This document shows, one piece after another, positions 2,772-39,658 of a stretch of DNA of 50,659 bases (the first letter of the stretch is position 1; every line of letters starts with the position of its first letter). The stretch is from a virus. Taxonomy: Duplodnaviria > Caudoviricetes. The DNA lies in the IMG/VR virus record IMGVR_UViG_3300020144_000015, positions 1-50,659 of that record, one strand, 5' to 3'. Under the pieces are notes generated by a model. That model saw nothing but the letters and a program-made list of their open reading frames with translations, made no database searches and was not told where the DNA came from. The position numbers and the translations under genes were made by a program.

Positions 2772-3533
2772 TTATCGGTTTGCTCGGAGGTTCGCATAGG
2801 CGGTAAGCACGACACCGACGATCTTCACTTCGATGCCGTCTCCGTCGACTTCGTGGTCACGCTGCACGACGATGGGGGAGTGATCTTTGTTGCTGGATAC
2901 GGGGCGCAGTTCGTAGCGGTCCTTGAAGAAATGCACCTCTTTGACCGTTAGCTCGCGCTCCGTTCCTTGGTGGCGGGTTCGCTCGACAACAACCAAGTCA
3001 CCACTTCTTATGTCTCCATAAACGTCGATGAAGTCAGAAGCGTCCGCACCCACAACCCACATGCCGTCTAGTATTCCCGCCTCGTTCATACTGTCCCCAT
3101 AGGAGCGCCATGCGTATTGGCGAACTTTGGAATACTTGGGAACGGGCAGAACATGCGATGGAACAGGCTCGTAATCTTGATTGAAATACTCGTCCGTGGC
3201 CACAAATGCACCGGCTTGGACGCGCCCTGCAAATCGAAGGGCTTCGCCATTATGAATGATCGCTGAAGGTGAAAGTACACTTTCACCATCGACAGACTCA
3301 GGGCCTTCGCCTTCCGTCAGCCAGGCAACCGAAGTCTTGAGCGCCTTGGCCAAGCCCCGAAGCGTGCTGATGCGCGGCGCAAAGGGCTCGTGCTTTTTGG
3401 CCTTGTCGTAAATCTTTCGCACAGCGTCCGGCTTACCGGTTGCCTCTTCGGACACCGCAGTGGGGTTCGTTTTGAGCTCGGAAATTCGGCGCTCAATGCG
3501 TCCCGCGAGAGTATTCGGATCAAATTCCATCAT
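2772..3533 (-). CDS. cI: CI-like repressor (XRE HTH + S24 autopeptidase)
   Basis: N-terminal HTH (PRISTLRGLAKALKTSVAWL); AG cleavage site (VQAGAF), GDSM serine and TVK lysine. Start uncertain. Confidence 0.88.
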   Translation of the reverse strand: MMEFDPNTLAGRIERRISELKTNPTAVSEEATGKPDAVRKIYDKAKKHEPFAPRISTLRGLAKALKTSVAWLTEGEGPESVDGESVLSPSAIIHNGEALRFAGRVQAGAFVATDEYFNQDYEPVPSHVLPVPKYSKVRQYAWRSYGDSMNEAGILDGMWVVGADASDFIDVYGDIRSGDLVVVERTRHQGTERELTVKEVHFFKDRYELRPVSSNKDHSPIVVQRDHEVDGDGIEVKIVGVVLTAYANLRANR

Positions 3534-3568
3534 ACCCAACAATAGCTTAGCCAAAAACATCGGGGTAT

Positions 3569-3611
3569 CGGATTGAAATCCGTTGACAGGACGGAATAAA
3601 ATCCGATTATG
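3569..3611 (+). promoter_or_regulatory. PR-like promoter with two operators
   Basis: CGGATTGAAATCCG (3569-3582) and CGGAATAAAATCCG (3592-3605) flank TTGACA (3583-3588). Same CGGA-N6-TCCG consensus as the left operators. Confidence 0.8.
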
Positions 3612-3641
3612 AAGGCGATTTCGCTTTGGAGCGCTTCGTCG

Positions 3642-3887
3642 ATGTCCCTCACACAACAGCTTCTAGCAGTAGCAACCGCGTATTCTGCGGCGACCGGGGT
3701 TTCGATGAGCACCCTCAGCACAAAGCTTCTCAACGGCGGCGGGCGACTTGGAGCGATAGCCTCGGGTGGTGATCTCAACACCCGGAATTTCGAAAATGCG
3801 ATGCGTTGGTTTTCGGACAACTGGCCAGCCGATGTTCGGTGGCCGAGCGGTGTACTGCGCCCCTTTCCCGCTGAGGTCGCGCCATGA
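3642..3887 (+). CDS. Cro-like HTH regulator
   Basis: 81 aa, divergent from cI, GGAG RBS. Confidence 0.75.
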   Translation: MSLTQQLLAVATAYSAATGVSMSTLSTKLLNGGGRLGAIASGGDLNTRNFENAMRWFSDNWPADVRWPSGVLRPFPAEVAP

Positions 3888-4716: not shown

Positions 4717-5096
4717 TTGCCTCCCGGAAAACCGTCCACCATGCGCCCGGACGTGAGGGCATCGACAGCGGCTGGCTCCAGGCCGTGTTTTTCCTGCGAG
4801 GCCCCGTCCTCGGCCGTCGCGGGATCGTCGATGCCTTCTCGCCCCGGCGCTGCGGCATGGGCGTCGGGGCCTCCCGACTGGCCGGGATGTGGAGAGACGG
4901 TTTCCGCGTTCTCCGCATCCCGGCGCTTTTTCTCTGCCGCGCGCAGGGCCTCGATGGCCTGGCGCAGGGCCGTGCTCGGCCGGTAGTTCGGAAAGCGGCT
5001 GCTCATCTCGCCCTGTCCCCCAACACGATGATGGTCCGGTTGTCGCGCGCAGCGCGGCGACTGTCACCCTGTAAATGCAGGAGGGTTTACGCATGA
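4713..5096 (+). CDS. Possible bridging ORF, hypothetical
   Basis: ATGA overlaps at 4713-4716 and 5093-5096; not protein-like in composition. Confidence 0.3.
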   Translation: MIASRKTVHHAPGREGIDSGWLQAVFFLRGPVLGRRGIVDAFSPRRCGMGVGASRLAGMWRDGFRVLRIPALFLCRAQGLDGLAQGRARPVVRKAAAHLALSPNTMMVRLSRAARRLSPCKCRRVYA

Positions 5097-5569
5097 GCGA
5101 GCCCCAAGCCAGCCGGCGGCTGCGCGCTGATGTCTATCGCGCCCTCAAGACTGATTTCGGCCTGCTGGTCGATGAAATCGGCACGCAGGGGCAGGCGGCG
5201 GAGCTGACCAATGTCAGCCAGCAGACGCTTTCGTCCTACGAAAACCGCAATCGCGCGGAATTTGCGCCGGTGGACGTGCTGGCCGATCTGCTCGACCGAA
5301 CGCGCTCCACCCATGTGCTGCGCATCCTCGCCGATATCGCCGGCGCCATCGTGGTGCCGTTGCCCCAGGATATCGGCCCCGTCGCCATCGTCGAGGGCTC
5401 GGGCGCCATGGCGCAGGCGCTGGGCAAGGCCATGGTGGCCATCGGCCAGGCGCTCGCCGATGGCGAAATCAGCCCGGACGAGGCCGAGGCGATCCTGCCC
5501 AAGCTGCAATCGATCATCGTCAGCGCCCACAAGCTGATGGAGCAGATCAAGGCGGAGGCGGGGCTATGA
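5093..5569 (+). CDS. Phage CII-like regulatory protein
   Basis: HTH (QAAELTNVSQQTLSSYE) plus C-terminal ALADGEISPDE motif; GGAGGG RBS. Confidence 0.7.
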   Translation: MSEPQASRRLRADVYRALKTDFGLLVDEIGTQGQAAELTNVSQQTLSSYENRNRAEFAPVDVLADLLDRTRSTHVLRILADIAGAIVVPLPQDIGPVAIVEGSGAMAQALGKAMVAIGQALADGEISPDEAEAILPKLQSIIVSAHKLMEQIKAEAGL

Positions 5570-7420: not shown

Positions 7421-9333
7421 ACGCTATCGGCTCATTCTCTCGCGCCCGCCGCATCCGGCGCCCATTGCCCTCCTTCGGCCTCGACGATCGCATGACCGTG
7501 GTGCTGTTCGCCGGCATGGGCGGCGGCTGCGACGGGTTGGAAGATGCCGGCTATCATGTGCATCTGGCGATCAATCACGATCCGCTCGCCATTGCGGTGC
7601 ATGAAAAGCGGCATCCGCACACCACCCATATGCGCTGCGACGTGTTCGAGGTCGATCCGCGCCAGGCGACGAAGGGCCGGGGCGTGCGTGCGCTGCATGC
7701 TTCGCCCGACTGCACGCATTTCTCGGTTGCCAAGGGCAGCAAGCCGGTCAGTAAACGCAGCCGCTCGCTCGCCTGGGTGGTGGTTCGCTGGATGGGCCAG
7801 GTGCATCCGGAACTGGTCACCCTTGAGAACGTGCAGGAAATCCAGACCTGGGGTCCGCTGATCGCCAAGCGCTGCAAGAAAACCGGGCGGGTGCTGAAAC
7901 TCGACGGCACGGTGGCGGCCAAGGGCGAGCATGTGCCGGTGCAGAACCAGCAGCTCGTTCCCGATCCGCGCCATAAGGGCCGTATCTGGCGCGCCTGGCT
8001 CAAGCATGTTGCCCGCCTGGGCTATAATTTTGAGGGGCGCGTTCTGGTCTGCGCCGATTATGGCGTGCCTACCATTCGGAAGCGCTATTTCGGCGTGGCG
8101 AAGGCCGATGGCGGGCCCATTGCCTGGCCGGAACGGACGCATGCGCCGCGCAAGCTGGCGCGGAAGCTCGGCCTCAAGCCGTGGGTCGGTGCGCATACGA
8201 TCATCGACTGGTCGCTACCCATGCGCTCGATCTTCGGGCGGAAAAAGCCGCTGGCCGATGCGACGCTGCGCCGGATCGCGCGGGGTGTCATGCGCTATGT
8301 GATCGAGGCGCAAGACCCGTTCATTGTGCCGATCACCCACGCTGGCGGGGACCGGATGACGCCGGTCACCGAGCCCTTGCGGACACTGACCACGGCGAGT
8401 CGCGGCGAAATGATGCTGGTGTCGCCTGTCGTGGCGGGCGTCGGCGGGCGAATGGGGCAAAGCGCGGAGCGCGACACGCGGGAGCCCTTACAATCGCTGA
8501 CCACGAAGCCGGACAGTGTTGTCGTGGCGGCGCATCTAACCAAGTTCTCGGAAAATGCAGTGGGCCTAGACCCGCGCGAACCGCTCAACACGATCATGGC
8601 GGGCGGGCAGGGGCACGCGGTGATTGCCGTGACGATGGTCGATCTGGCGCATGGCGAAACCGGAATGGCCGGCGGAAAAGAGCGAGGGCGCGATCTCCGC
8701 GAACCAGTTGGTGCGCTGCATGCTGGTGGCGGCAACGCGGCGCTCGTGGCGACGTTCCTGGCCCAGCACAATGCCGACAGCCGCCGCATCGGTGGCGTCA
8801 ATCCCGGTCGGGATGCCCGTGAGCCCGTGGCGACGCTGACCATGCAATCGCAGGTTGGCGTGGGCGCGGTGACGCTCGGCCGGCTGCGCGGCGCCGATAT
8901 AGATGGTCAGGATGTGCGCGAGCCCCTGCCGACGCAGACCTGTGGTGGGGGGCATGAAATGCTCATCATGCCGTTTTTGCAGGCCTATTATCAAAGCGGC
9001 TCGGAAGGGCAGCGCGTTGACGACCCGCTCCGCTCGCTCACCGGCAAGGCCAGGCATAGCCTGGTCACGGTCGAAGTCGACGGCCAGACGATGGTCGTAA
9101 CCGACATCCTCATTCGCATGCTCGACTGGAGCGAGGGCGCCCGGGCGCATGGTTTCGATCCCGCCAGCCTGCGGCACGAAATCGAGGTCGTCGACAAAAA
9201 GGGCCGAACGATCAGCCGCCCGCCCACCAAGACGGAGTGCGGTCATCTGATCGGCAATTCGGTGCCGCCGCACATGGTGGAACTGCTGGTTGGCCTCAAC
9301 GCCACGCCCGAGCTGATGGTGGCAGCCGGATGA
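7417..9333 (+). CDS. C5-cytosine DNA methyltransferase (phage orphan type)
   Basis: LFAGMGG (motif I), SPDC (IV), ENV (VI), RKR (VIII), IGNSV (X); repeated D-x-REP-x-x-T units. Confidence 0.92.
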   Translation: MNAIGSFSRARRIRRPLPSFGLDDRMTVVLFAGMGGGCDGLEDAGYHVHLAINHDPLAIAVHEKRHPHTTHMRCDVFEVDPRQATKGRGVRALHASPDCTHFSVAKGSKPVSKRSRSLAWVVVRWMGQVHPELVTLENVQEIQTWGPLIAKRCKKTGRVLKLDGTVAAKGEHVPVQNQQLVPDPRHKGRIWRAWLKHVARLGYNFEGRVLVCADYGVPTIRKRYFGVAKADGGPIAWPERTHAPRKLARKLGLKPWVGAHTIIDWSLPMRSIFGRKKPLADATLRRIARGVMRYVIEAQDPFIVPITHAGGDRMTPVTEPLRTLTTASRGEMMLVSPVVAGVGGRMGQSAERDTREPLQSLTTKPDSVVVAAHLTKFSENAVGLDPREPLNTIMAGGQGHAVIAVTMVDLAHGETGMAGGKERGRDLREPVGALHAGGGNAALVATFLAQHNADSRRIGGVNPGRDAREPVATLTMQSQVGVGAVTLGRLRGADIDGQDVREPLPTQTCGGGHEMLIMPFLQAYYQSGSEGQRVDDPLRSLTGKARHSLVTVEVDGQTMVVTDILIRMLDWSEGARAHGFDPASLRHEIEVVDKKGRTISRPPTKTECGHLIGNSVPPHMVELLVGLNATPELMVAAG

Positions 9334-9662
9334 CAGGCGTTTTAAGACAATCTCGCCGTGTAGTACGGGTTCTCGCCGCAAGAAAGGGCGTAGGCCCCTC
9401 CTTCATTGCGCGTGATCTCCAGCAGGACATTGCCCTTACTCGTCAACGCCTGGACGATCTTGTCGTCGGTAAGGTGCCGCGCAGCGAGAAGCCTAATCAC
9501 TTCCCGCGCCCGCGCCTCGGAAATCGTGACCTCGACTTCGTAGAAAGGTTCAACGCCGTCGTAGCCGGTTATTGTCCATTTGCTGAACATAGAGCCCTCC
9601 TTGAGCAGGGTTGGAACTATCGCCCCGACGCGTCGGAAAAAGCAATTGGGGGTGTATGTTGA
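9330..9662 (+). CDS. Sense-strand bridging ORF over an antisense gene
   Basis: Starts in an ATGA overlap with the methylase stop; its stop overlaps the next ATG (ATGTTGA). Confidence 0.35.
   Translation: MTGVLRQSRRVVRVLAARKGVGPSFIARDLQQDIALTRQRLDDLVVGKVPRSEKPNHFPRPRLGNRDLDFVERFNAVVAGYCPFAEHRALLEQGWNYRPDASEKAIGGVC
9342..9590 (-). CDS. Antisense moron-like hypothetical protein (82 aa)
   Basis: AAGGAGG RBS; lower GC than flanks; protein-like composition. Confidence 0.7.
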   Translation of the reverse strand: MFSKWTITGYDGVEPFYEVEVTISEARAREVIRLLAARHLTDDKIVQALTSKGNVLLEITRNEGGAYALSCGENPYYTARLS

Positions 9663-12289
9663 ACCTCCCCCTCCGCTATGAGGACTTTCTTGCCGCCAAG
9701 GTCGCCATGGCGCCGGTATCGGGCTTCCTGGTCCATGACGACGAGATCAACCCGCTGCTGAACCCGCATCAGCGCGATAGCGTCAAATGGGCGTGCCTTG
9801 GCGGGCGGCGGGCGCTATTCCTGGCCTTTGGGCTGGGCAAGAGCTTCATCCAGATCGAAATCCTGCGCATCATCCGCGCCCGCTTCGGCGGCATGGGCCT
9901 GATCGTGGCGCCGCTGGGCGTGCGCCGCGAATTCATGGCCGATGTGCGCACCCTGGCCACGGGTGACCATCCCGATATCACCGATGCGCAGCGGGCCGCT
10001 CTGGCGGCGTGGCAGGAAGGGCATGCGGAGCGCGTGCCCCAGCTCACCTTCATCCGGACTGATGCCCAGGCCCAGGCGCCGGGGCTCTATATCGCCAATT
10101 ACGAGCCGGTGCGCGACGGCAAGATCGATCCCGCCCGCTTCACCGCGTCCAGCCTGGACGAGGCATCGGTGCTGCGCGGTTTCGGCAGCACCAAGACCTT
10201 CCGCGAATTCATGCGGCTGTTCGACGGGGTGCGGTTCAAGTTCGTGGCCACAGCCACGCCCAGCCCCAATGAGTATATCGAGCTTCTGGCCTATTCGGCC
10301 TTTCTCGAAGTTATGGATGTGGGCCAGGCAAAAACCCGCTTCTTCAAGCGCAATAGCGAAAAGGCCGACACGCTCACCATCCATCCGCACAAGCAACGCG
10401 AGTTCTGGCTATGGGTGGCGAGCTGGGGCCTCTTCGTGCAGAAGCCATCGGATCTCGGCCATAGCGATACGGGCTACGAGCTGCCCGGGCTCGACGTGTT
10501 CTGGCACGAGCTGCCGGCCGATCACTCCACGGCCGGCATGGAAAAGAGCGGGCAGGGACGGTTGCTGCGCAATGCAGCCGCCAGCCTCTCCGACGCGGCG
10601 CGGGAAAAGCGCGACAGCATGCCGGCGCGCATCGCCAAGATGCTGGAGCTGCGCCAGATCGACACCCAGGCGCACCGGCTGATCTGGCACGACCTCGAGG
10701 ACGAGCGGCGCGCCATCGAGGCGGCGGTGCCGGGTGTGGCCACCGTATATGGCAGCCAGGACCTGGCGCGCCGGGAAGAATTGCTGGCAGACTTCGCCGA
10801 AGGCCGGCGGGCCGAGCTGGCCGGCAAGCCTTCCATGCTGGGCTCGGGCGGCAATTTCCAGCGGCATTGCCATTGGGCGGTGTTCCTGGGCATCGGCTTC
10901 AAGTTCAACGACTTCATCCAGGCGGTTCACCGCATTCATCGCTTCCTGCAACGGCACAGGGTGCGCATCGACCTCATCTATACAGAGGCCGAGCGACCGG
11001 TGCGCGATAGCCTCGAAGCGAAATGGCGCCGCCATGACGAGCAGGTGGCGATCATGACCGGCATTATCCGTGAATACGGCCTCACCTCGGCCGCGATGGC
11101 CCAGAGCCTTACCCGCGCCATGGGGGTGGAGCGCGTCGAGGTCGCCGGCGAGGGCTATGTGCTGGTCAACAATGACTGTGTGCCCGAATGCACCGCCATG
11201 GCGGCCGACAGCGTCGACCTGATCGTCACCTCGATACCGTTCTCGACCCAGTACGAGTATTCGCCGAACTATGCCGATTTCGGTCATACCGACGACAATG
11301 CGCATTTCTGGGCGCAGATGGACTATCTGATCCCGCAATTGCTGCGCGTGCTACGGCCCGGCCGGGTCGCCGCCATCCATGTGAAAGACCGGATCGTTCC
11401 GGGCGGCATGACCGGGCTGGGGTTCCAGACCGTCTATCCGTTTTCGGACGATTGCGTGCGCGCCTTCGTGCGGCACGGCTTCGCCTTCCTCAGTCGCAAG
11501 ACCATTACCACCGACGTGGTGCGGGAAAACAACCAGACCTATCGGCTGGGCTGGACCGAGCAATGCAAGGATGGCAGCCGCATGGGCAACGGGTTGCCCG
11601 AATATCTGCTGATCTTCCGCAAGCCGCCGACGGACAATTCCAATGGCTATGCCGATAGGCCGGTGGCCAAGCGGAAAAAGGAATGGAAACAGGGTCAATG
11701 GAGCGAGGCCGAAGGCTATAGCCGGGCGCGCTGGCAGCTCGATGCCCATGGCTATATGCCGGTTTCCGGCAATCGCCTGCTCACCGGCGAAGAGCTGCGC
11801 AGCCTCGATGCCAATGTCATCTTCAAGCTGTGGAAGGCCTACCAGCTCCACGCGGTCTATGATTTCCAGCACCATGTGAAGATCGCGGAAGAGATGGAGG
11901 AATGGGGCTCGCTCCCCTCCACCTTCATGCTGCTGCCGCCCCATTCCAAGCATGACGATGTGTGGACCGATGTGGCGCGCATGCTGAGCATGAACACGCT
12001 CCAGGCGCAGGCCGGGCGGGAAATGCATCTCTGCCCGCTGCAGTTCGACATCATCGATCGCTGCATCACGCAATATTCCGAGCCGGGCGAGATCGTCTTC
12101 GACCCGTTCGGCGGGCTGATGAGCGTGCCCTATCGGGCCCTCAAGCTCAGGCGCCAGGGGCGCGCCGTCGAGCTCAACCCCGCCTATTTCGTCGATGGCT
12201 GCCAATACGTGAAGGCCATGGCCGACGAGCTGGCCATGCCGGACCTGTTCGGCGTGCTGGAGATCGAAGAAGGGGAGCAGGTGGCATGA
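9656..12289 (+). CDS. SF2/SNF2-like helicase fused to an N4/N6 DNA methyltransferase
   Basis: FGLGKS, LDEAS, ATATP, QAVHRIHR helicase motifs; then TSIPF (motif IV-like) and DPFGG (SAM-binding). Confidence 0.88.
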   Translation: MLNLPLRYEDFLAAKVAMAPVSGFLVHDDEINPLLNPHQRDSVKWACLGGRRALFLAFGLGKSFIQIEILRIIRARFGGMGLIVAPLGVRREFMADVRTLATGDHPDITDAQRAALAAWQEGHAERVPQLTFIRTDAQAQAPGLYIANYEPVRDGKIDPARFTASSLDEASVLRGFGSTKTFREFMRLFDGVRFKFVATATPSPNEYIELLAYSAFLEVMDVGQAKTRFFKRNSEKADTLTIHPHKQREFWLWVASWGLFVQKPSDLGHSDTGYELPGLDVFWHELPADHSTAGMEKSGQGRLLRNAAASLSDAAREKRDSMPARIAKMLELRQIDTQAHRLIWHDLEDERRAIEAAVPGVATVYGSQDLARREELLADFAEGRRAELAGKPSMLGSGGNFQRHCHWAVFLGIGFKFNDFIQAVHRIHRFLQRHRVRIDLIYTEAERPVRDSLEAKWRRHDEQVAIMTGIIREYGLTSAAMAQSLTRAMGVERVEVAGEGYVLVNNDCVPECTAMAADSVDLIVTSIPFSTQYEYSPNYADFGHTDDNAHFWAQMDYLIPQLLRVLRPGRVAAIHVKDRIVPGGMTGLGFQTVYPFSDDCVRAFVRHGFAFLSRKTITTDVVRENNQTYRLGWTEQCKDGSRMGNGLPEYLLIFRKPPTDNSNGYADRPVAKRKKEWKQGQWSEAEGYSRARWQLDAHGYMPVSGNRLLTGEELRSLDANVIFKLWKAYQLHAVYDFQHHVKIAEEMEEWGSLPSTFMLLPPHSKHDDVWTDVARMLSMNTLQAQAGREMHLCPLQFDIIDRCITQYSEPGEIVFDPFGGLMSVPYRALKLRRQGRAVELNPAYFVDGCQYVKAMADELAMPDLFGVLEIEEGEQVA

Positions 12290-12507
12290 ACAGGATTGAG
12301 AAACTGCGCTGGCAGCTTGCAGACAACAAAGTTGCCTATGAAGCCGGCCGGCAGGGCAGTCCGGAGCGCGATGGCAAATTTGCCGCGCGGGAACAGGCCA
12401 TCCTCATGCAGTTCCATGTCTATGGCGTAGCACCCTCCTATCCCGAAGGATGGCTGGAGGGCTATCTGAGGGGCGGTGCCGACTGGCACAGGCAGGTCCG
12501 GCCATGA
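12286..12507 (+). CDS. Hypothetical protein
   Basis: 73 aa (MNRIEKLRW), ATGA-coupled on both sides. Confidence 0.65.
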   Translation: MNRIEKLRWQLADNKVAYEAGRQGSPERDGKFAAREQAILMQFHVYGVAPSYPEGWLEGYLRGGADWHRQVRP

Positions 12508-12887
12508 CCGTGCGCCGCGAAATCCTGCCCCAGCGCCGCTATTGCGAGAGCTTCGACCTCGCCTTCCCACCTTTCACCGGCAAGCTCTACACCGTGACGC
12601 TGGGGTGCCATCCCGACGGCAGGATCGCCGAGGTGTTCATCAGCTCGCACCGCAAGGTGGGCAGCGATAGCGACCTGGCCGCGCGCGACACCGCCATCCT
12701 GATTTCGTTGGGCCTGCAACACGGCGCCACGCTCGAAAACCTGACCGGCGCCATGACCCATGACGCCGCCGGCCGCCCGGAAGGGCTGGCGGGGCAGGTG
12801 CTGCTGCACCTGCTCGACTGGCAGCGCGCCCATCCCTTTTTACAGACCGAGTTCAACCAAGGAGACGACCATGAAGACCAAGACTGA
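12504..12887 (+). CDS. Stand-alone TSCPD-like (class II RNR C-terminal) domain protein
   Basis: RREILPQRR...YTVTLG..PDG..AEVFI....K.GS......D.AILISLGLQHG pattern. Confidence 0.7.
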   Translation: MTVRREILPQRRYCESFDLAFPPFTGKLYTVTLGCHPDGRIAEVFISSHRKVGSDSDLAARDTAILISLGLQHGATLENLTGAMTHDAAGRPEGLAGQVLLHLLDWQRAHPFLQTEFNQGDDHEDQD

Positions 12888-13791
12888 CGACGTGCCTTTC
12901 GGCCTTTCCAAGGTCGACCCCACCCGCCCGGCCTTCGAGTGCGTGGGAAACCGCCTGATCGTGGCCGATGCCATCACCGTTATCGGCACGGATGGGACCA
13001 ACCATCATTTCGAAAGCGGGCGGGAAGTGCTGTTCGACGCCGACCATGCAGCGCCGGGCACTGATTTCGCCGTGGTGCTGACCGATGACGGTAATCTCGC
13101 CGCGCTTGCCTGGGCGGGCGATCTTTCCGAGCACGACCATCGCATCGGCGGGTTCCATTTCGCCCCGGGCGGTAATGCGACGGCGCGGCAGGGCGGCGAT
13201 GCCGTGCCGGCGATCAACCCGGACTCGATCTGGGATGATGCGTTCCGTCCGGCCTGCGCCGATCCGCGCGGCATGGCGCTCGATGTGCTGCCCGGTGGGC
13301 GCAAGGTGTGGGGCGACATCTATTTCACCGGTGTCGGGCACCTGGAAAACGGCACCTCGCGCCATGGTGTCGTCATTGCCGATGGCGGCAGCAACTTGCC
13401 CGGAAAGCCAAGCGGCGGGCTGTTCAAGGTGCTGGATTTCCAGGTGGCCCAGCAGATCGCCGCCCATCACGGCAAGCGCCTGTTGAGCTTCGAGGAATTC
13501 GCCTCGGGCGCCTATGGCGTGACCGAACGCAGCAGCGACGACGACAAGGCGGCGCTGACCGGCCTTTCCATGGCCCGCACTTCGCGGCGGGGCTGGCACC
13601 AGGCGACGGGGCAGCGCTGGACCTGGGGCACCGATGGCGATCCGGACGATCCCCGCGCTTCCCTCCTGGGCGGTTCGTGGATCGACAGGTCGGACGCGGG
13701 CTCGCGTTTCGCGCCCCTCGACTACTGGCCGGGCAGCTCGGACGAGGGCCTCGGCCTGCGCCTCGCCAGTGACCACCTGACCGCTGCCTAG
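12871..13791 (+). CDS. mtd: DGR target protein, Mtd-like CLec fold with C-terminal VR (306 aa)
   Basis: AAGGAG RBS; GGFHFAPG, SIWD..FRP...DPRGM, HHGKRL, W.WG, GGSW..., SDHL match remembered BPP-1 Mtd motifs. Confidence 0.9.
   Translation: MKTKTDDVPFGLSKVDPTRPAFECVGNRLIVADAITVIGTDGTNHHFESGREVLFDADHAAPGTDFAVVLTDDGNLAALAWAGDLSEHDHRIGGFHFAPGGNATARQGGDAVPAINPDSIWDDAFRPACADPRGMALDVLPGGRKVWGDIYFTGVGHLENGTSRHGVVIADGGSNLPGKPSGGLFKVLDFQVAQQIAAHHGKRLLSFEEFASGAYGVTERSSDDDKAALTGLSMARTSRRGWHQATGQRWTWGTDGDPDDPRASLLGGSWIDRSDAGSRFAPLDYWPGSSDEGLGLRLASDHLTAA
13655..13773 (+). repeat. DGR variable repeat (VR)
   Basis: 119-nt ungapped match to 14216-14334 with 13 mismatches, all opposite a TR adenine. Confidence 0.97.
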
Positions 13792-13810
13792 CCAGCCCGG
13801 AAGGGCTGGC
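13791..13810 (+). promoter_or_regulatory. DGR target-recognition hairpin downstream of IMH
   Basis: GCCAGCCC-GGAA-GGGCTGGC: perfect 8-bp stem with a 4-nt loop, starting at the target stop codon. Confidence 0.9.
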
Positions 13811-13828
13811 GACGATTTGGAGAAAAGC

Positions 13829-14197
13829 ATGATTGTCAGGGATGAGAACGCCGCCGTTCCGGCCCTGGCAATCGTCGAAAAATACGAGACGCTGGTGGCC
13901 TATCTTTATCCCATATTGCAGAACTGTCCGCGCCGGCACGGCATCGCCCGTGATCGCGCGCTCGATGTGCTGCTCGGCGTGCCCGAGCTGCTATACGGCG
14001 CTTCTGCATCGAAACAGGTCTCGAAACTTTACGCAGTTGATGGCGCGCTGGCCACGCTGCGTTTCTGGCTGCGCTTTTTCGTCCATGCCGACCGCAAGGT
14101 CATCACGCCGCATCAGCAGCGCACCGCCCTGGCCATGCTGGCCGAGGTGGGGCGCATGCTGGGCGGCTGGCAGCGGGCGCTAAAGGGCAGGGGGTGA
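13829..14197 (+). CDS. avd: DGR accessory variability determinant
   Basis: YLYP..Q..PR.HG.AR, QVSKLY..D..LA.LRFWLRF, TPHQ, AEVGRMLGGW; GGAG RBS. Confidence 0.93.
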   Translation: MIVRDENAAVPALAIVEKYETLVAYLYPILQNCPRRHGIARDRALDVLLGVPELLYGASASKQVSKLYAVDGALATLRFWLRFFVHADRKVITPHQQRTALAMLAEVGRMLGGWQRALKGRG

Positions 14198-14215
14198 TCG
14201 GGGTCATGATTTGGG

Positions 14216-14334
14216 GCGCTTCCATCCTGGGCGGTTCGTGGATCAACAGGTCGAACGCGGGCTCGCGTTACGCGAACCTCGACAACTGGCCGGACAACTC
14301 GAACGAGAACATCGGCCTGCGCCTCGCCAGTGAC
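14216..14334 (+). repeat. DGR template repeat (TR)
   Basis: Seven AAC codons in the VR frame; 24 adenines; located between avd and RT. Confidence 0.97.
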
Positions 14335-14528
14335 GGCCATGCCTGGCTGTCGGCTCCGCGACGGTCACGGCCGCGCGGGCCGGCCACGTCAATTATGATT
14401 GGTGGTCAGCCCGGTTATCCTGCTTCGGCGAATACATTGCTCGGTCCGGTACAGCGGGGCGTAGCAGGGCACCTGTCATTGCCTTGTCGAGACCCGCGAC
14501 CGGCTCTCGGCGGTTGCGGGGGCGCCCA
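14335..14528 (+). ncRNA. DGR spacer (3' part of the TR-RNA, IMH*/priming region)
   Basis: Position between TR and RT; GGTGGTCAGCC...TCCTGCTTCGGCGAA.AC resembles the BPP-1 spacer as remembered. Confidence 0.6.
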
Positions 14529-15524
14529 ATGACCAGGCGCTTCCGCAACCTGATCGGCCCGATCACCTCCGACGACAATATGCGCGCCGCTCTGCGCCTG
14601 ACCGCGCGGGGCAAGCGCTGCACGACCGGCTATCTGGAATTCAAGGAATTCGACGCACTCAACCTCGAAGCGCTGGCCCGCGACATGCGGCGCGGCGCCT
14701 ATATCGAGGGCGCGCCGCGCATATTCACCATTTTCGACCCCAAGCAGCGCCTCATCACGGCGCTGCCGTTCCGCGACCGCGTGGCCCAACAGGCGCTGTG
14801 CCTGGTGATCGGCCCAATCTTCGAGCGGACACTGTTGCCGCGCGCCTATGCCTGCCGACCGGGCAAGGGCACCCATAGGGCGGCGCGCGACGTGCAGGCC
14901 GAGTTGCGGCGCATGGGCCGGGACGGCCTGCCGGTCTATGTGCTCAAAACCGATTTTTCCGCCTATTTCTCCTGCATCGAGCGGGATGTGCTGCACCGGC
15001 TGGTTGCCTCTAAGATTTCCTGCGCCGCCACGCTCGACCTGATCGGCCGCATGGTGCCGCGCGCGGGAATCGGCCTGCCCATCGGCTCGCTGACCAGCCA
15101 GATCTTCGCCAATGTCTATGGCGGCGTGGTGGATCGGTTTCTCCAGCAGGAAATGGGGGAGCCGTCCTGGTTTCGCTACATGGACGATATCGTGGTGCTG
15201 GGCCGCTCGGCCGAGCATCTGCACGCGCTGCGCGTCGCCATCGAAGCCATGGCGGCTGAACGGCTCGGCCTGCGTTTTTCCAAATGGTCGGTGCAGCCGG
15301 CCACGCGCGGGGTCAATTTCGTCGGCTATCGCATCTGGCCCACCCACAAGCTCATTCGCCGCGACAGCGTGGTGCGCGCCCGCCGCAAGATCGCCGCCTA
15401 TCGCGCCGCCGGCGATCATCAGCGGCTGGAGCGCTTCCTTGCCGCATGGACGGGCCATGCCAGCCATGCCGATACACGCAATCTGGTGCGCTCGCTGGCC
15501 ATCGATATGGAGGGCACGCGATGA
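14529..15524 (+). CDS. brt: DGR reverse transcriptase (331 aa)
   Basis: FRDRVAQ, KTDFSAYF, GLPIGSLTSQIFAN (DGR-type SQ), RYMDD, NFVGY; no maturase or endonuclease domain. Confidence 0.96.
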   Translation: MTRRFRNLIGPITSDDNMRAALRLTARGKRCTTGYLEFKEFDALNLEALARDMRRGAYIEGAPRIFTIFDPKQRLITALPFRDRVAQQALCLVIGPIFERTLLPRAYACRPGKGTHRAARDVQAELRRMGRDGLPVYVLKTDFSAYFSCIERDVLHRLVASKISCAATLDLIGRMVPRAGIGLPIGSLTSQIFANVYGGVVDRFLQQEMGEPSWFRYMDDIVVLGRSAEHLHALRVAIEAMAAERLGLRFSKWSVQPATRGVNFVGYRIWPTHKLIRRDSVVRARRKIAAYRAAGDHQRLERFLAAWTGHASHADTRNLVRSLAIDMEGTR

Positions 15525-16717
15525 CACTGTCCCCCGAGCTGGCCACGCTGCGCGACGAAGCCATGGCCGTCACCTGCTGGAGTTGGGCCGATTTCAGGGG
15601 CTGGAAGCTCGGCCCCGGGCCGGACAAGGCTGGCCCTTGTCCAAAATGCGGCGGAACGGATCGTTTCGCCATCCATACGACCAAGAACACCTTCCTGTGC
15701 CGCCGCTGCGGCCTTGCCGGCGGTGGCGTCATCGACCTGGTGATGCAGACCGAGGGCCTGAAATTCGTAGCTGCATGCGAGCTGATTACCGGCCGGCGTG
15801 TCGCCGATCCGGTCTCGGCCGAGGAACAGGCGCGCATCCATCAGGAGGCGGCGCAGCGCGAGCGCGAACGTGCCGCCGAAGAGCAGAAGCGTCGCCTGCG
15901 GGCGATCAATGAGGGGCTGGGCATTTGGGAGCGCACAGCGGCGCCGGGACCGCTGGGGCAGGGTGGCGTGGCTGACTATCTCCAGCTGCGCGGCATCGGC
16001 GGTCTGCACCTGGACAAGATATTGGTCCGGGAAATCATGGCTCATCCTTATGTCGTCGAGGTCGAGGATGAGCGCGGCCGCAAGAGCTATCCGACGCTAC
16101 ACACCGGACCCTGCATGGTGGCGGCCGTGGTCCTGCCCAATGGGCAGTTCGGCGCCGTGCATCAGACATGGCTCGACCTGACCCACCCGAAGGGCAAGGC
16201 GCGGCTGTTCCATCCGACCCGGACAGAAAAGGACGGATCGCCCCTGGCGCTGCCGGCCAAGAAGGTGCGGGGCAGCAAGAAGGGCGGCGCCATCAAGCTC
16301 TATTCGCCACGCCATGCGCGCCGCATCGTGATGGGCGAAGGAATCGAAACCACTCTGACCGCCCTGCGGCACAATTTCGAGGCGAACACGGCCTATTGGG
16401 CCGGCGTTGACCTGGGCAACATGGCCGGCCGGGCGCTGCTCGGCGTGGATGGCAAGCGCCATGAGGCCGAGCCGAATCTCGATGATGCCGAATGCTTCCT
16501 GCCACCCGACTGGTGCGCGGAGCTGGTCTATCTCTGCGACAGCGACGAGCCCGAGACTCGGACGGTGGAAAAGGTCACCCGCGGCCTCAAGCGCGCCCAG
16601 CATTTCCGCGATCTGGCACGAGCGACCAAGCCGGACCTCGCACCGCTTGCCACCTCCTTTGTCGAGCCGGTCGGCAACGGCAAGGACCTCAATGATCTGG
16701 TGAGGGCTGACCCGTGA
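15521..16717 (+). CDS. Primase (P4-alpha-type Zn ribbon + Toprim)
   Basis: GPCPKCGGTDRF...CRRC; GEGIETTL; KDLND; ATGA overlap with the RT stop. Confidence 0.85.
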   Translation: MTLSPELATLRDEAMAVTCWSWADFRGWKLGPGPDKAGPCPKCGGTDRFAIHTTKNTFLCRRCGLAGGGVIDLVMQTEGLKFVAACELITGRRVADPVSAEEQARIHQEAAQRERERAAEEQKRRLRAINEGLGIWERTAAPGPLGQGGVADYLQLRGIGGLHLDKILVREIMAHPYVVEVEDERGRKSYPTLHTGPCMVAAVVLPNGQFGAVHQTWLDLTHPKGKARLFHPTRTEKDGSPLALPAKKVRGSKKGGAIKLYSPRHARRIVMGEGIETTLTALRHNFEANTAYWAGVDLGNMAGRALLGVDGKRHEAEPNLDDAECFLPPDWCAELVYLCDSDEPETRTVEKVTRGLKRAQHFRDLARATKPDLAPLATSFVEPVGNGKDLNDLVRADP

Positions 16718-18552
16718 CCGATACGCCCGACGACGAAAACCCGGTCAAAAAGGCCATGGGCAAAAAGAAGACGGTTAAGCTCACCGTTGTGGACGGGGGT
16801 AAGGCCGAAAAGCCCAAGCGCACCCGGAAGCCCGCTGCGCCCAAGGATGAAGCGCCGCCTCCGCCGGAGGAGGGCGACCCCGGGCCAGCCGAGCCCGATT
16901 ATGGTGATGCCGATGACTTCGGCAGTAATGATGGGATGGATGAGGCCGAGCTGATCGTCACCCGATGGTGTGCCGGCCTCGATCAAAACGATCGTGACAA
17001 TGGGCGGCGGCTGGTCGCCTGGTTCGGGCCGGACATCAAATATGTGACGGGGTTGGGCTGGCTGGTCTGGAAGGGCACGCACTGGCAGCGCGACGAGGCC
17101 GACCTCGATGTCCGGTTGCTTGCGCAATGCATCGTCGACAAGATCAAGCTCGAGGCCATTGAGCTGGAAGCGAGTGACCGGCAGAAGCGTATCCTCGAAC
17201 GCTCGACCGAATTGCTGAAAAAGCAGGGTGAATTGAGCGCGGCCGAAGAACGGATCATCAAGACAGCCGGCGAAATCATGACGGCGCTGGGCAAGCGCCG
17301 CTCCTCGCGCATCGCCTGGGCGGTGACCTCCGGCAATTCCGGCCGCACCAAGGCAATGCTGGAGCAGGCACAATCTTTGCAGGCGCTGCCCATCGACCGG
17401 CTCGATGCCGATCATAACCTGTTCAACGTCGCCAATGGTACATTGCGGTTCTGGAAGGAGCTTGATCCTGACCAGCCCGAAGGCGGCAGCCGGATGATCG
17501 GGCGTTTCGAGTTTCTGCCGCATGATCGGGCTCATCTCATCACCAAAATGGCCGATGTCGAGTATCACCCCGAGGCGACAGCTCCATTCTTTCACGAAAC
17601 CTTTCTGGCCAAGGTGCAGCCTGAAGCGCGTTGGCGCACCTTCATCCAGGTGTCGACGGCAGTCGCGCTGCTGTTCGGCGGCAATGATGAGCAGAGGCTG
17701 TTTTTCCACTATGGCACCGGCGCCAACGGCAAGAGCGCCTTCTTCGAGCTGATCGGTCGCCTCGCCGGTTCATATCGGCAGATCGCATCCCCGGAATCGA
17801 TCACCGGCGATGGCCAGCGGGCGGGCCAGCAGGCCAACCCCGACATCGCCCGCCTGCACAACGCACGCCTGGTAACCATCGAGGAACTGCCCAAGAATAC
17901 GCCGCTCAAAGAAGAGCTGATAAAGGCGCTGACCGGCGGCACCAAAATCCTGGCGCGATTCCTCAACAAGGATTTCTTCGAGTTCATGCCGCAGTTCACG
18001 CCCATGCTCTCGGGCAACAACAAGCCGGCGATCTCGGGCACTGACGAAGGCATCTGGCGGCGGTTTCTGTTCGTGATCTGGGGCATCAAGATCCCGGAGG
18101 GCGAGCGCATGCTGCCGACCGAACTGGCGGCGCGCCTCGATGCTGAACGCTCTGGCGCGCTCAACTGGTTGATTGAGGGCGCATTGCTCTATCTCCAGCA
18201 TGGGCTCGATTTTTTCACGCCGCCCGAGGCCAAGGCCTTCGCCCAGGACTATCGGGAAGAGCGCGACAATGTCGGCGTGTTTGCTGAAGTCGCCATTGAG
18301 AAGGCCTTGCCAGCCGATGGCTGCAAGGTGCAGGCGGGCGATCTCTACAAGGCCTATCTGCGCTGGTGCGAGGCCAACCAGCTCAAGCCTGCCAGTAATC
18401 GCAGCTTCGGGGACCGGCTCAGCGATCTAGGTTTCCAGAAAAAGCGCTCGAACTACTATTACTACATCGACATCCGCCTCAAGGATGGCTTGGCCGGCTC
18501 TTCGGGGGGCGATGGTCCGCCACCTCGCGACCCGGACGATCCGGGGCTCTAG
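16714..18552 (+). CDS. D5/P4-family SF3 helicase (primase-associated)
   Basis: YGTGANGKS Walker A; IKALTGG; NNKP; GIWRR; C-terminal winged helix. Confidence 0.9.
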   Translation: MTDTPDDENPVKKAMGKKKTVKLTVVDGGKAEKPKRTRKPAAPKDEAPPPPEEGDPGPAEPDYGDADDFGSNDGMDEAELIVTRWCAGLDQNDRDNGRRLVAWFGPDIKYVTGLGWLVWKGTHWQRDEADLDVRLLAQCIVDKIKLEAIELEASDRQKRILERSTELLKKQGELSAAEERIIKTAGEIMTALGKRRSSRIAWAVTSGNSGRTKAMLEQAQSLQALPIDRLDADHNLFNVANGTLRFWKELDPDQPEGGSRMIGRFEFLPHDRAHLITKMADVEYHPEATAPFFHETFLAKVQPEARWRTFIQVSTAVALLFGGNDEQRLFFHYGTGANGKSAFFELIGRLAGSYRQIASPESITGDGQRAGQQANPDIARLHNARLVTIEELPKNTPLKEELIKALTGGTKILARFLNKDFFEFMPQFTPMLSGNNKPAISGTDEGIWRRFLFVIWGIKIPEGERMLPTELAARLDAERSGALNWLIEGALLYLQHGLDFFTPPEAKAFAQDYREERDNVGVFAEVAIEKALPADGCKVQAGDLYKAYLRWCEANQLKPASNRSFGDRLSDLGFQKKRSNYYYYIDIRLKDGLAGSSGGDGPPPRDPDDPGL

Positions 18553-18961
18553 CTCGCCAACGGAAGGCAGCGGCCGGGACGGTCGCGCCTTCGTCGCCGC
18601 GCCCCGCACCCCATTTTTTCAGAGAAAAGGAAGTCCCAAACCTCCCGCCGCTATCGCGGCGCGATAGAGGTTTGGGAGATTTGCGGGAGGGTGAATGCAA
18701 TTGTCCCGTAACTATTTCAATAGCAAAATCAATGTGTTCCTCTGAAAATTAGAGGGTTGGGACTGTCTCGGGCGCGTAATGTAAGGGGGCAGGGGTGTGG
18801 GGTGAATTGGCGCGAAACGGAATGGCAAAAACGGCTCATGCGTCATTGGCAACTGTCCCAAGCGTTCCATCCTCTACAACACCTTCTATTCGCTTCGCTT
18901 TCTCCGATAGAGGTTTCCAAAAGAACCTCTAAGGACTGTCCCAGATAAGAGGTTTAGAGCC
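18553..18961. other. Structured intergenic region, candidate replication origin
   Basis: Nested inverted repeats, repeated TGTCCC/GGGAC motifs and an AT-rich patch directly after the helicase. Confidence 0.45.
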
Positions 18962-19546
18962 ATGGCTATAACAATAGATGTGGAAGAGCTGGTGATCTGG
19001 GCCTTTCGGGATCAGAAGGTCGAAGCGGTTGCGCGCAACATGATGCCGTCGCTGCCGACATGGTCGTCGGATAGCTCGCTTGCACAGGTGCTGGCGCTGG
19101 GCACGAAGGTGGACACCACGTCGGCTGGGTCGCGCTTCGTCGCATTGCATTGCCGGGAGGATGCAGCGGTCATCTTCGATGCGGTTATGGCCTTGCCATC
19201 CGAGGCGCGCATGCTGGTGGTTAAGCACGCTCGATCCGGAACGCGCCCCGAATGGCACGAAGAGGGGCCAGGTGAGTGGGTGCAGCCGGTCGACAAGCGC
19301 GGCAATCCCAAAAAGCTCTGGCGCGATCCGTCGACGCAGCGTGGTTTCCTCGGTTATGCGCCCAAGGAACTGGTGGGCACGCATCCGACGGTGGTGGAAG
19401 AGGCGCGCCGGGCCTATTGCGTCTGGTGGCTCGCCCTGGGCGACATTGTCGACCTGCTCAATGGGCCGGATGGCCTCACCGAATTCCAGGCTGTTCAGCC
19501 GAAGGATGCCACTCCGCCATGGTTTGTGTCGTGTCAGGTCGCATGA
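18962..19546 (+). CDS. Hypothetical protein at the late-regulator (Q-like) position
   Basis: 194 aa; last gene before the late promoter-like region. Confidence 0.7.
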   Translation: MAITIDVEELVIWAFRDQKVEAVARNMMPSLPTWSSDSSLAQVLALGTKVDTTSAGSRFVALHCREDAAVIFDAVMALPSEARMLVVKHARSGTRPEWHEEGPGEWVQPVDKRGNPKKLWRDPSTQRGFLGYAPKELVGTHPTVVEEARRAYCVWWLALGDIVDLLNGPDGLTEFQAVQPKDATPPWFVSCQVA

Positions 19547-19551
19547 GGGTG

Positions 19552-19643
19552 TTGACGTGTGGGTAAAAATTGACATAGCTTCACCACAACAAATCAGGTC
19601 TTGAGTTAGGCGCTTCGGGAAACCGTAGCGCCTTTGTCGTTTT
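19552..19643 (+). promoter_or_regulatory. Candidate late promoter followed by a terminator-like hairpin
   Basis: TTGACG (19552) and TTGACA (19570); AGGCGCT-TCGG-GAAA-CCGT-AGCGCCT (19608-19633) then a T-rich tract. Confidence 0.55.
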
Positions 19644-19655
19644 CGAGGTGTTGTG

Positions 19656-20033: not shown

Positions 20034-20120
20034 CGACACGACAGGGGGGGGGGCGGTCGAAAGTCTGGGCGACCTCGGGGCCTCGTACCGGCTTGGGGGT
20101 CACGTGGAGATTTTTTTCTC
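20034..20120. other. Candidate cos region
   Basis: HNH-terS gap with G10-CGGTCGAAAGT...ACCG...GAGATTTTTTT, typical of cos-phage end regions. Confidence 0.5.
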
Positions 20121-39208: not shown

Positions 39209-39658
39209 ATGACCCGAACACTACCGAACATTCCGGCGCGCAAGCCCGGGTGGGAGCGAAGCTTTGTGGCCATCATGGCGCGGCACGTCGCCACGCCGTT
39301 TGCCTGGACCCCAGAGGCGCATTGCCTGGCGGCTCCGGCCGAGCTGTGCCTGGCGATGACGGGCGTTGATCCGATGAAGGGTTTCCGGCGCCATCGCAGC
39401 GAGGCGGGCGCCCTGCTGGCCATGAGGCGTGCGGGCTTCGAGACTGTGGAAGATGCCTTGGCGGCGGTCTTCCCGGAAATCCCCAAGCTGCTCGCCCGCC
39501 GTGGCGATTGCGGGGTGCTGGCGCAGGATGTCGAGGGCCGTCCCTGGCTGACCAGCTTCGTGGTCATGGGCGCCATGGCTGTGGGGAAAAGCGCGCGCGG
39601 GCCGATCTATGTGCCCACGGCCACGCTGAAGCGCGCCTTTGCCATTGGAGCCTATTGA
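39209..39658 (+). CDS. Tail-tip NlpC/P60-like protein
   Basis: PFAW....C......AMTG.DP...ARRGD. Confidence 0.7.
   Translation: MTRTLPNIPARKPGWERSFVAIMARHVATPFAWTPEAHCLAAPAELCLAMTGVDPMKGFRRHRSEAGALLAMRRAGFETVEDALAAVFPEIPKLLARRGDCGVLAQDVEGRPWLTSFVVMGAMAVGKSARGPIYVPTATLKRAFAIGAY

What the first reader, a model, noticed from the sequence alone, without database searches (positions are those of the whole stretch)
12871..15524. Complete BPP-1-like DGR embedded in the early methylase/replication operon, not the tail module
Seen: target-hairpin-avd-TR-RT are welded into the early operon. The target start overlaps the upstream gene and the RT stop overlaps the primase ATG (15521-15524). The tail fibre is ~28 kb away, the phage has its own tip/fibre genes, and I saw no VR in them. 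Established: classical phage DGRs diversify late-expressed receptor-binding proteins. Inference: here the hypervariable protein is made early under CI control and may act inside the cell, for example binding host defence or regulatory proteins. That would be a different use of a tropism-switching cassette.
Basis: partly seen in the sequence, partly recalled or inferred. Interest (0 to 1): 0.92.

Follow-up and report, generated by a model that had tools for sequence, protein, structure and literature searches.

The report
Phage DGR inside the early operon
A phage's built-in mutation machine for a binding protein sits among its early DNA-replication genes instead of its tail genes, as it does in a whole group of related phages, so it is an open question whether the variable protein works on the virus particle at all.

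Summary
Window 12871-15524 holds a complete BPP-1-type DGR: Mtd-like target, VR, hairpin, avd, TR, DGR RNA and RT. All 13 TR/VR mismatches lie at TR adenines. The cassette is chained by overlapping start and stop codons into the rightward early gene array. It lies 26-30 kb from the tail fibre genes, and the record holds no second VR.

New here: this is not a one-off. The target belongs to a large family of about 300-aa "short Mtd" proteins of alphaproteobacterial prophages. These lack Mtd's N-terminal prism. Of 79 unique related cassettes, 68 have methylase, ParB, CII, clamp, helicase or primase neighbours. I saw none beside tail genes. The cassette sits either among replication genes, as here, or at the integrase end of the other early arm. 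It co-occurs with unrelated virion modules.

The protein is 35% identical to the virion protein Mtd. I rate a virion add-on adhesin at about 0.5 and a non-virion role at about 0.3.

Earlier notes of this scan concern this same window only. I call this a new variant of a known kind.

The parts
2775..3656 (-). CI-like repressor (context: sets the left border of the rightward early arm)
   Evidence: Pfam Peptidase_S24, 6.7e-12
3573..3610 (+). two overlapping sigma-70-like promoter matches pointing rightwards (candidate early promoter)
   Evidence: 10 of 12 hexamer matches each. These are the best hits in 3500-21000, but they are consensus matches only
5075..5569 (+). CII-like regulator
   Evidence: phrog_101, 6.5e-19; Pfam Phage_CP76
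7432..9333 (+). C5 cytosine DNA methyltransferase
   Evidence: PF00145, 3.6e-20; phrog_116, 2.2e-73
9611..12289 (+). helicase fused to an N6/N4 DNA methyltransferase
   Evidence: phrog_16, 2.9e-108; PF01555
12286..12507 (+). small ORF with ATGA overlaps at both ends; no family match
12504..12887 (+). 127-aa ORF overlapping the target start by 17 nt; only a weak TSCPD match below the cut-off
   Evidence: homologues near DGRs in 6 loci, the window included
12871..13791 (+). DGR target: free-standing short Mtd homologue (beta-sandwich plus C-type lectin domain, no N-terminal prism)
   Evidence: PF21916, 5.4e-8. phrog_11262, 3.8e-67, on profile positions 69-391 of 393. Aligns to Mtd residues 53-379 of 381. 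Foldseek finds only Mtd chains
13655..13773 (+). variable repeat (VR)
   Evidence: 13 of 13 mismatches to the TR lie at TR adenines
13791..13810 (+). post-VR hairpin, 8-bp stem with GGAA loop, starting at the G of the stop codon
13817..14197 (+). avd (likely start is the ATG at 13829, behind GGAG)
   Evidence: Pfam bAvd, 8.8e-24; phrog_3206
14216..14334 (+). template repeat (TR); 24 adenines, 7 AAC codons in the VR frame
14353..14504 (+). DGR RNA spacer element
   Evidence: Rfam RF03022, 86.8 bits, full length 1-127
14529..15524 (+). DGR reverse transcriptase
   Evidence: RVT_1; phrog_1423, 7.9e-105; 53% identical to Brt; YMDD present in the translation
15521..16717 (+). DNA primase; its ATG overlaps the RT stop
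   Evidence: phrog_510, 4.3e-62; zinc-ribbon primase domains
16714..18552 (+). D5/P4-type primase-helicase
   Evidence: phrog_1156, 1.7e-120; D5_N; Pox_D5
18553..18961 (.). 409-nt non-coding gap before the packaging genes; candidate start of the late unit
   Evidence: inference only
39508..42120 (+). central tail fibre-like protein, no VR (context, for distance)
   Evidence: phrog_5616, 1.2e-89; no VR
43679..45451 (+). second tail fibre-like protein, no VR (context, for distance)
   Evidence: phrog_5073, 1.4e-14; no VR

Best explanation
This is a complete and apparently intact DGR of the BPP-1 clade. By homology with BPP-1, RT and Avd copy the TR RNA, priming from the adjoining DGR RNA. Adenines are miscopied, and the cDNA replaces the VR, guided by the 3' end of the VR and the hairpin. 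This rewrites up to 24 adenine positions in the ligand-binding face of the target's C-type lectin domain.

The target is a free-standing, anchor-less member of the Mtd family and has no signal peptide. The cassette is translationally chained into the rightward early array (CII, methylases, helicase, primase). That is the normal state for a large lineage of alphaproteobacterial temperate-phage DGRs. These sit in one of the two early arms and travel with early genes, not with any one tail module.

Shown: the anatomy, the homology, the position and its recurrence. Inferred: activity, early transcription and the fate of the protein. My commitment on function is that the protein is still an Mtd-type adhesin. 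It would be made from the early operon and added to the virion after translation as an accessory receptor-binding module.
For: Anatomy.

Mtd homology: 35% identity over 97% of the target. The target aligns to Mtd residues 53-379. The only fold matches at E<=0.001 are 5 Mtd chains. RT is 53% identical to Brt and Avd 50% to the BPP-1 Avd.

Selection on the VR: all 13 changes fall at codon positions 1 or 2. In relatives, 74 of 79 unique elements show a TR/VR pair. Of 1327 mismatches in 107 pairs, 1221 (92%) lie at TR adenines.

The ORF has a strong Shine-Dalgarno sequence.

In 3 of 3 isolated phage genomes examined (BPP-1, Marinomonas P12026, Synechococcus S-CBS3), Mtd-like genes lie among structural genes. 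The family's known role is therefore on the virion.

Weak hint: the N-termini of two targets in one phage are somewhat more alike, relative to their cores, than those of targets from different phages (ratio 0.60 against 0.46; the pairs are not independent). That would fit a phage-specific docking partner.

Recalled, from no call: Mtd works through multivalent display on the particle, which lets weak binders function.
Against: The N-terminal prism of Mtd is absent. In the AF2 model the first strand starts at residue 11, which leaves no room for an anchor domain. No piece like the Mtd N-terminus or like the BPP-1 fibre Bbp9 exists elsewhere in the record.

The gene is coupled to early genes and lies 26-30 kb from the fibres.

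Among relatives the cassette is in an early arm in all 37 unique elements that I could classify. I saw it beside tail genes in none.

In 32 long viral records that all carry the target, the window's tail-tip proteins are rare: 3, 2, 0 and 0 of 32. Its capsid protein is found in 10 of 32. No conserved tail partner is therefore visible.

No virion data exist for any member. No isolated phage in the phage collection carries the short form: all 14 hit records are BPP-1 relatives or more distant longer forms.
Confidence: 0.5

Rival explanations
1. One reading: the short Mtd never joins the particle. It is an early-made, hypervariable soluble binder that acts in the infected cell, for example on host defence or regulatory proteins, or free after lysis. 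The DGR would let the phage lineage search for binders to variable host factors.
For: Early-arm position with tight coupling: in 25 of 72 loci with a same-strand upstream gene, the gap is 20 nt or less (window). The RT tree needs 3 changes between the two early arms, at least 2 of them forced by well-supported branches, and I saw no change into a tail module. There is no anchor domain. The cassette is not linked to any virion module. The neighbours are DNA methyltransferases, ParB-methylases, DUF5131 and clamp proteins, the part of a phage that deals with host DNA-level defences. Intracellular DGR targets have been proposed for cellular DGRs (abstracts of PMC7517822 and PMC10053308).
Against: No direct evidence of any kind. 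The protein is a plain homologue of a virion receptor-binding protein across both retained domains. Position does not fix a protein's fate, because early products persist until assembly. A soluble trimer lacks the avidity that makes weak DGR variants useful on a particle (recalled). The N-termini of co-resident paralogues are slightly more alike, which hints at a phage-specific partner. The placement could serve the RT, Avd and TR RNA rather than the target.
Confidence: 0.3
2. The position has no bearing on function. The cassette is mobile cargo that persists where insertions are tolerated, in accessory stretches of the early arms and near attP. Alternatively, it sits there because RT, Avd and TR RNA must be made while the DNA replicates, and the target merely rides along.
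For: BPP-1 and the window share only the three cassette proteins, so the cassette moves as a unit. The neighbours vary a good deal between loci. In the commoner configuration the cassette lies next to the integrase and attP. In the circular record G011 that places it 3.5 kb from the lysin gene and 7.3 kb from a tail fibre-like gene, on the other strand. BPP-1's cassette also lies near its att site.
Against: I saw no insertion into the late or tail region among 79 unique elements, although that is where Mtd-type genes lie in the three isolated phages examined. ATGA-type coupling to flanking early genes recurs, which is not what loosely inserted cargo looks like.
Confidence: 0.15
3. The target is a decaying remnant: an mtd gene truncated at its 5' end and no longer used.
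For: It is 75 residues shorter than Mtd at the N-terminus.
Against: The short length is the norm of a large family: 528 proteins at E<=0.001, and the 120 listed are mostly 287-319 aa. The ORFs are intact and have their own Shine-Dalgarno sequence. The VR changes are adenine-specific and limited to non-synonymous codon positions.
Confidence: 0.03

Closest known systems
Bordetella phage BPP-1 DGR (mtd-avd-TR-brt)
   Same: Same parts in the same order. RT is 53%, Avd 50% and target 35% identical. The cassette has the Phage_DGR RNA, a hairpin after the VR and adenine-only mismatches.
   Different: In BPP-1 the cassette directly follows the tail fibre gene at the end of the structural gene string, ahead of the lysis genes. 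Here it lies between a helicase-methylase and the primase. The target lacks Mtd residues 1 to about 50. The phages are otherwise unrelated.
Vibrio cholerae HE-09 kappa-like prophage DGR (passages of PMC3521204)
   Same: A BPP-1-clade cassette (RT, atd, TR, VR and part of mtd) transferred as a unit of about 2.9 kb.
   Different: There the partial mtd is fused in frame to the resident tail fibre gene, which supplies an anchor. Here the partial form stands alone in the early operon.
Mtd-like tail proteins without an RT: Marinomonas phage P12026 gp20 and Synechococcus phage S-CBS3 'mtd'
   Same: Homologous C-terminal domains, 33-36% identical.
   Different: These proteins are longer (about 495 and 387 aa, from the coordinates). 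They are encoded among tail or head-tail genes, and no RT is annotated in either record.
Cellular DGRs with proposed intracellular targets (cyanobacterial signalling proteins, PMC7517822; candidate DGR-based defence, PMC10053308; abstracts and a few passages only)
   Same: They offer the idea that a DGR can diversify a binder that works inside the cell.
   Different: Those are cell-encoded, multi-domain proteins from other RT clades. None is a phage Mtd homologue in an early operon.

Membership tests
Diversity-generating retroelement, BPP-1 clade | DGR-type reverse transcriptase | tested here: met
   RVT_1, 1.3e-12. phrog_1423, 7.9e-105. 53% identity to Brt over 96% of the query. YMDD present.
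Diversity-generating retroelement, BPP-1 clade | TR/VR pair whose differences lie at TR adenines | tested here: met
   119-nt pair with 13 of 13 mismatches at TR adenines.
Diversity-generating retroelement, BPP-1 clade | Accessory protein Avd | tested here: met
   Pfam bAvd, 8.8e-24 (cut-off 40 bits, score 84.5); phrog_3206.
Diversity-generating retroelement, BPP-1 clade | Structured RNA between TR and RT | tested here: met
   Rfam RF03022, 86.8 bits against a gathering score of 50.
Diversity-generating retroelement, BPP-1 clade | cis elements at the VR 3' end (IMH, then a G+C hairpin) | tested here: met
   The hairpin is present. VR and TR are identical for their last 23 nt and then diverge. 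That this stretch works as an IMH is inferred, not tested.
Diversity-generating retroelement, BPP-1 clade | Ongoing mutagenic retrohoming | tested here: inconclusive
   No VR variant appeared in the contigs of four runs or between near-identical loci. Contigs drop rare variants.
Mtd (major tropism determinant) proteins | Mtd second (beta-sandwich) domain | tested here: met
   PF21916, 33.6 bits against a cut-off of 24.6. AF2 pLDDT is 85-91 over residues 11-80.
Mtd (major tropism determinant) proteins | C-terminal C-type lectin domain carrying the VR | tested here: met
   Aligned to Mtd up to residue 379 of 381. Foldseek TM-score 0.63-0.67 to the Mtd chains. The model is weak over the VR itself.
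Mtd (major tropism determinant) proteins | N-terminal prism domain (about residues 1-50 of Mtd; the domain name is recalled) | tested here: not met
   The alignment starts at Mtd residue 53 and target residue 8. No such piece exists elsewhere in the record.
Mtd (major tropism determinant) proteins | Encoded with the tail genes | tested here: not met
   for the window; for relatives.
Mtd (major tropism determinant) proteins | Located at the tail fibre tips and binds the host receptor | not testable with these tools
   This needs virion proteomics, imaging or adsorption assays.

The most novel reading that the evidence does not exclude
A whole lineage of temperate phages of Alphaproteobacteria uses a DGR to diversify an early-expressed, soluble lectin-fold binder that works off the virion, not a tail protein. 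It would be a phage-side 'antibody library' aimed at variable host factors such as defence proteins. This would be the first non-structural use of a phage DGR.
Probability: 0.3. Interest if true: 0.9.

Novelty: new variant of a known kind. Interest (0 to 1): 0.6.

Why it matters
Phage DGRs are read almost by reflex as devices for switching tail fibre tropism. One large survey inferred a tail role for Mtd-type targets from homology alone (PMC5758913, passages). Here an abundant, easily recognised lineage keeps the cassette in early operons, without an anchor domain and without linkage to any tail module.

Two outcomes are possible. In one, these phages load an early-made adhesin onto very different tails, which would be a new assembly route. 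In the other, the variable protein has a non-virion job. Both can be tested directly in cultured Rhizobium, Mesorhizobium or Bradyrhizobium lysogens. The result also matters for annotation: "phage major tropism determinant / tail protein" may be the wrong label for hundreds of database entries.

Tried and rejected
A single-protein scan of viral contigs found no relative. The alignment-based scans did.

In one search only the first 25 of 62 matched families were shown for the 62 unlabelled neighbours. A tail family could hide among the 37 not shown, or among the 42 of 79 elements I could not classify.

Sequencing runs: only contigs were served. One contig spans 11527-15754 with no differences and no VR variants are listed. 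The RNA-library contigs are short and shallow and do not show transcription. I draw no conclusion from a part without cover.

Near-identical locus pairs have identical VRs. The one pair that differs (L024/L051) has 5 differences, all about 500-570 nt downstream of the TR, not in a VR. Many genome and viral loci are the same element, so I removed duplicates. The counts still include duplicates.

A search for a shared promoter motif between the region upstream of the target and the 18553-18961 gap found nothing. ACTGTCCC-like words cluster in the gap, but their total count in the window equals chance: 28 found against 28.1 expected. Terminator-like sites are no more frequent than in shuffles: 14 against 13.2.

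Longer relatives: only 8 were found, at 33-47% identity. One carries DUF2793 and one a ParB N-terminal domain. I did not follow their contexts.

The homotrimer prediction gave no verdict, so I use it neither way. I sent no target-versus-tail-protein complex job, because no candidate partner stood out.

Literature: searches found no paper on a phage DGR in an early or replication operon, or on Mtd homologues of rhizobia. One search was badly framed and uninformative. I read passages of PMC5758913, PMC8144416, PMC10743442, PMC3521204 and PMC10053308, and the abstract of PMC7517822. Supplementary tables of the two large surveys may list these elements and their contexts.
Full report
WHAT IS THERE

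The window is a whole provirus record of 50,659 bases, and CheckV estimates it as 100% complete. An integrase is cut by the left end. The exact target protein also occurs on a 950-kb contig, so this is a prophage.

Nearly all genes from 5075 to 47865 run on the plus strand. In order they are:
- a CII-like regulator, two DNA methyltransferases (one fused to a helicase), the DGR, a primase and a D5-type helicase;
- a 409-nt gap;
- HNH, small and large terminase, portal, protease, capsid, adaptor and tail tube;
- a Rha-like insert, tape measure, two tail fibre-like genes, a Kelch-repeat gene and the endolysin.

A CI-like S24 repressor (2775-3656, minus strand) faces the two best sigma-70-like promoter matches of the scanned stretch (3573-3610, plus strand).

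THE DGR

The target is 12871-13791, with VR at 13655-13773. A hairpin lies at 13791-13810 and avd ends at 14197. TR is 14216-14334, the Rfam Phage_DGR RNA is 14353-14504, and the RT is 14529-15524.

TR and VR differ at 13 positions. All 13 are TR adenines (24 adenines in the TR) and all fall at first or second codon positions. No other VR exists on either strand.

The helicase-methylase, two small ORFs and the target overlap one after another. RT, primase and helicase are joined by ATGA overlaps. Between 9611 and 18552 the only non-coding stretches are the 25 nt that hold the hairpin and the TR/RNA segment.

WHAT THE TARGET IS

The target is 35% identical to BPP-1 Mtd over 97% of its length. 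It aligns to Mtd residues 53-379 of 381. It matches Pfam mtd_2nd and a PHROG tail family from profile position 69 onwards. Its AF2 model (mean pLDDT 66; 85-91 over the N-terminal sandwich; first strand at residue 11) finds only Mtd chains in the PDB.

So it is an Mtd homologue without Mtd's N-terminal domain. Its first residues do not look like a signal peptide (my reading of the sequence; no predictor was run). BPP-1 and this phage share nothing but the three cassette proteins. There is no homologue of the BPP-1 fibre and none of the missing Mtd N-terminus anywhere in the record.

THE WIDER PICTURE

The target has 528 relatives at E<=0.001 in the large protein collection. The 120 listed are 223-445 aa long, mostly 287-319 aa. 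Where named, they come from Mesorhizobium, Bradyrhizobium, Rhizobium, Agrobacterium, Ochrobactrum, Afipia and similar genera. Only 8 longer forms turned up.

An alignment of 36 family members retrieved 39 loci from species genomes and 79 from viral contigs. I called ORFs, clustered them and annotated the recurrent clusters.

Counts before removing duplicates (117 loci with cassette genes, the window included):
- 96 have early-type genes within 10 kb (ParB-methylase, other methylases, CII, sliding clamp, helicases, primase, dNMP phosphatase);
- 43 have an integrase;
- 9 have packaging or structural genes. In 7 of these they are the terminase-portal start of the late genes downstream of the RT. 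In L062 and L075 the gene is an HNH gene upstream on the other strand. L066 is the only one with a further late gene, a lysin on the other strand beyond the integrase;
- 16 have none of these, and most of those are short contigs.

Many loci are the same element sampled twice. After removing duplicates, 79 unique cassettes remain besides the window. Of these, 68 have early-type neighbours, 33 an integrase, 6 packaging genes and 9 none. I saw no tail gene beside a cassette, with two caveats: 42 of the 79 could not be classified, and one search showed only 25 of 62 matched families.

TWO CONFIGURATIONS

In type A, replication or methylase genes and then the terminase lie downstream on the same strand. 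This is the window's type and it covers 10 further unique elements. In type B (27 unique elements), the cassette ends an early arm that runs into the integrase and is divergent from CII.

Three circular type-B genomes show the full layout. The early arm carries the targets, avd, RT and int up to attP. The late operon (terminase through tail to lysin) converges on attP from the other side.

Three near-complete type-A relatives share the DGR plus primase or helicase-methylase with the window. At 1e-6 they had no match to its head or tail proteins covering at least 35% of the query. Two have a lysin match, and a fibre fragment turned up in G002.

On an RT tree of the 46 classifiable loci, the A and B labels need 3 changes, at least 2 of them forced by well-supported branches.

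In 72 of 90 loci the gene upstream of the first target lies on the same strand, and in 25 of these the gap is 20 nt or less. Forty-two of the 90 loci carry two targets and one carries three.

The lineage carries the DGR signature throughout. In 74 of 79 unique elements a TR/VR pair is found, and 1221 of 1327 mismatches lie at TR adenines.

LINKAGE TO VIRION MODULES

All 32 long viral records have the target at 45-56% identity. A PF03354-type terminase is found in 14 of the 32. Matches to the window's own proteins are rarer: capsid protein in 10, central fibre in 3, second fibre in 2, and the two proteins between the fibres in 0 each (positive control). These 32 records were not de-duplicated.

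The cassette thus travels with early genes across phages whose particles differ.

By contrast, in the three isolated phages with Mtd-like genes that I examined, the gene lies among structural genes and the protein is longer. A published Vibrio case has the partial mtd fused to the resident tail fibre (PMC3521204, passages).

HOW IT MOST LIKELY WORKS

The diversification mechanism follows from the anatomy and from homology to BPP-1. Its parts are shown here; its activity is inferred.

The fate of the protein is open. Four lines favour a virion role:
- the homology to Mtd;
- the general rule for phage DGRs;
- the recalled avidity argument;
- a weak signal that the N-termini of co-resident paralogues are more alike than expected.

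Four lines favour a non-virion role:
- the early position kept through several relocations;
- the tight coupling to early genes;
- the missing anchor domain;
- the lack of linkage to any tail module.

An early-operon product can still be present at assembly, so timing alone decides nothing. I put the virion add-on adhesin at about 0.5, an off-virion binder at about 0.3, position as a by-product at about 0.15, and a decaying remnant at about 0.03.

COMPARISON AND NOVELTY

The element meets every sequence-level criterion of a BPP-1-clade DGR. The target is homologous to Mtd but fails two features of Mtd as a tail protein, namely the N-terminal domain and the tail-module location. I therefore do not file it as a tail protein.

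In eight literature searches and the passages I read, I found no description of phage DGRs resident in early operons or of this alphaproteobacterial short-Mtd lineage. I could not see supplementary tables. I call it a new variant of a known kind and score its interest at 0.6.

Noticed in passing
window 12775-12791 and 13795-13811: An exact 17-nt direct repeat. The second copy is the loop and 3' arm of the post-VR hairpin. The first lies inside the ORF just upstream of the target, where it folds no better than shuffles (78 of 200 fold as well). It may be a trace of an earlier target 3' end or of recombination.
   Followed up: partly
window 18553-18961: A 409-nt lower-G+C gap before the packaging genes. 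It holds five or six ACTGTCCC-like words within 250 nt, although the window-wide count of such words equals chance. It is a candidate late regulatory region.
   Followed up: partly
window 45462-46388: The gene after the second tail fibre has Kelch-repeat matches (Kelch_1, 36 bits against a cut-off of 20). The frameshift proposed there was not tested.
   Followed up: partly
window 31855-32748: A Rha-like or antirepressor-type regulator (phrog_518, 6e-32) sits inside the tail gene string, between the tail tube and the tape measure.
   Followed up: no
G031, G003, G021, G005 and G022 (viral records; coordinates): Some relatives carry a further full-length target copy 4-11 kb from the cassette, in one case on the other strand. 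I did not check whether these remote copies have a VR that matches the TR.
   Followed up: no
L024 versus L051, cassette block positions 2859-2941: Two otherwise identical cassettes differ by five T-to-G/C changes within 83 nt, about 500-570 nt downstream of the TR and not in a VR. This could be an assembly artefact or something else.
   Followed up: no
loci (for example L002:7761-8975): A DUF5131 (Gp37/Gp68-type) gene lies within 10 kb of the cassette in 42 of 118 loci and is its immediate neighbour in 21 (17 downstream, 4 upstream). Its role is unknown.
   Followed up: partly
P0121 and P0127: Rare long forms: one joins a ParB N-terminal domain to the Mtd second domain (594 aa), and one joins DUF2793 to it (561 aa, Jiella mangrovi). 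Their contexts were not examined.
   Followed up: no
window 9342-9590 (minus strand): A small minus-strand ORF (82 aa, lower G+C) lies in the only sizeable gap of the early array, between the two methylase genes.
   Followed up: no
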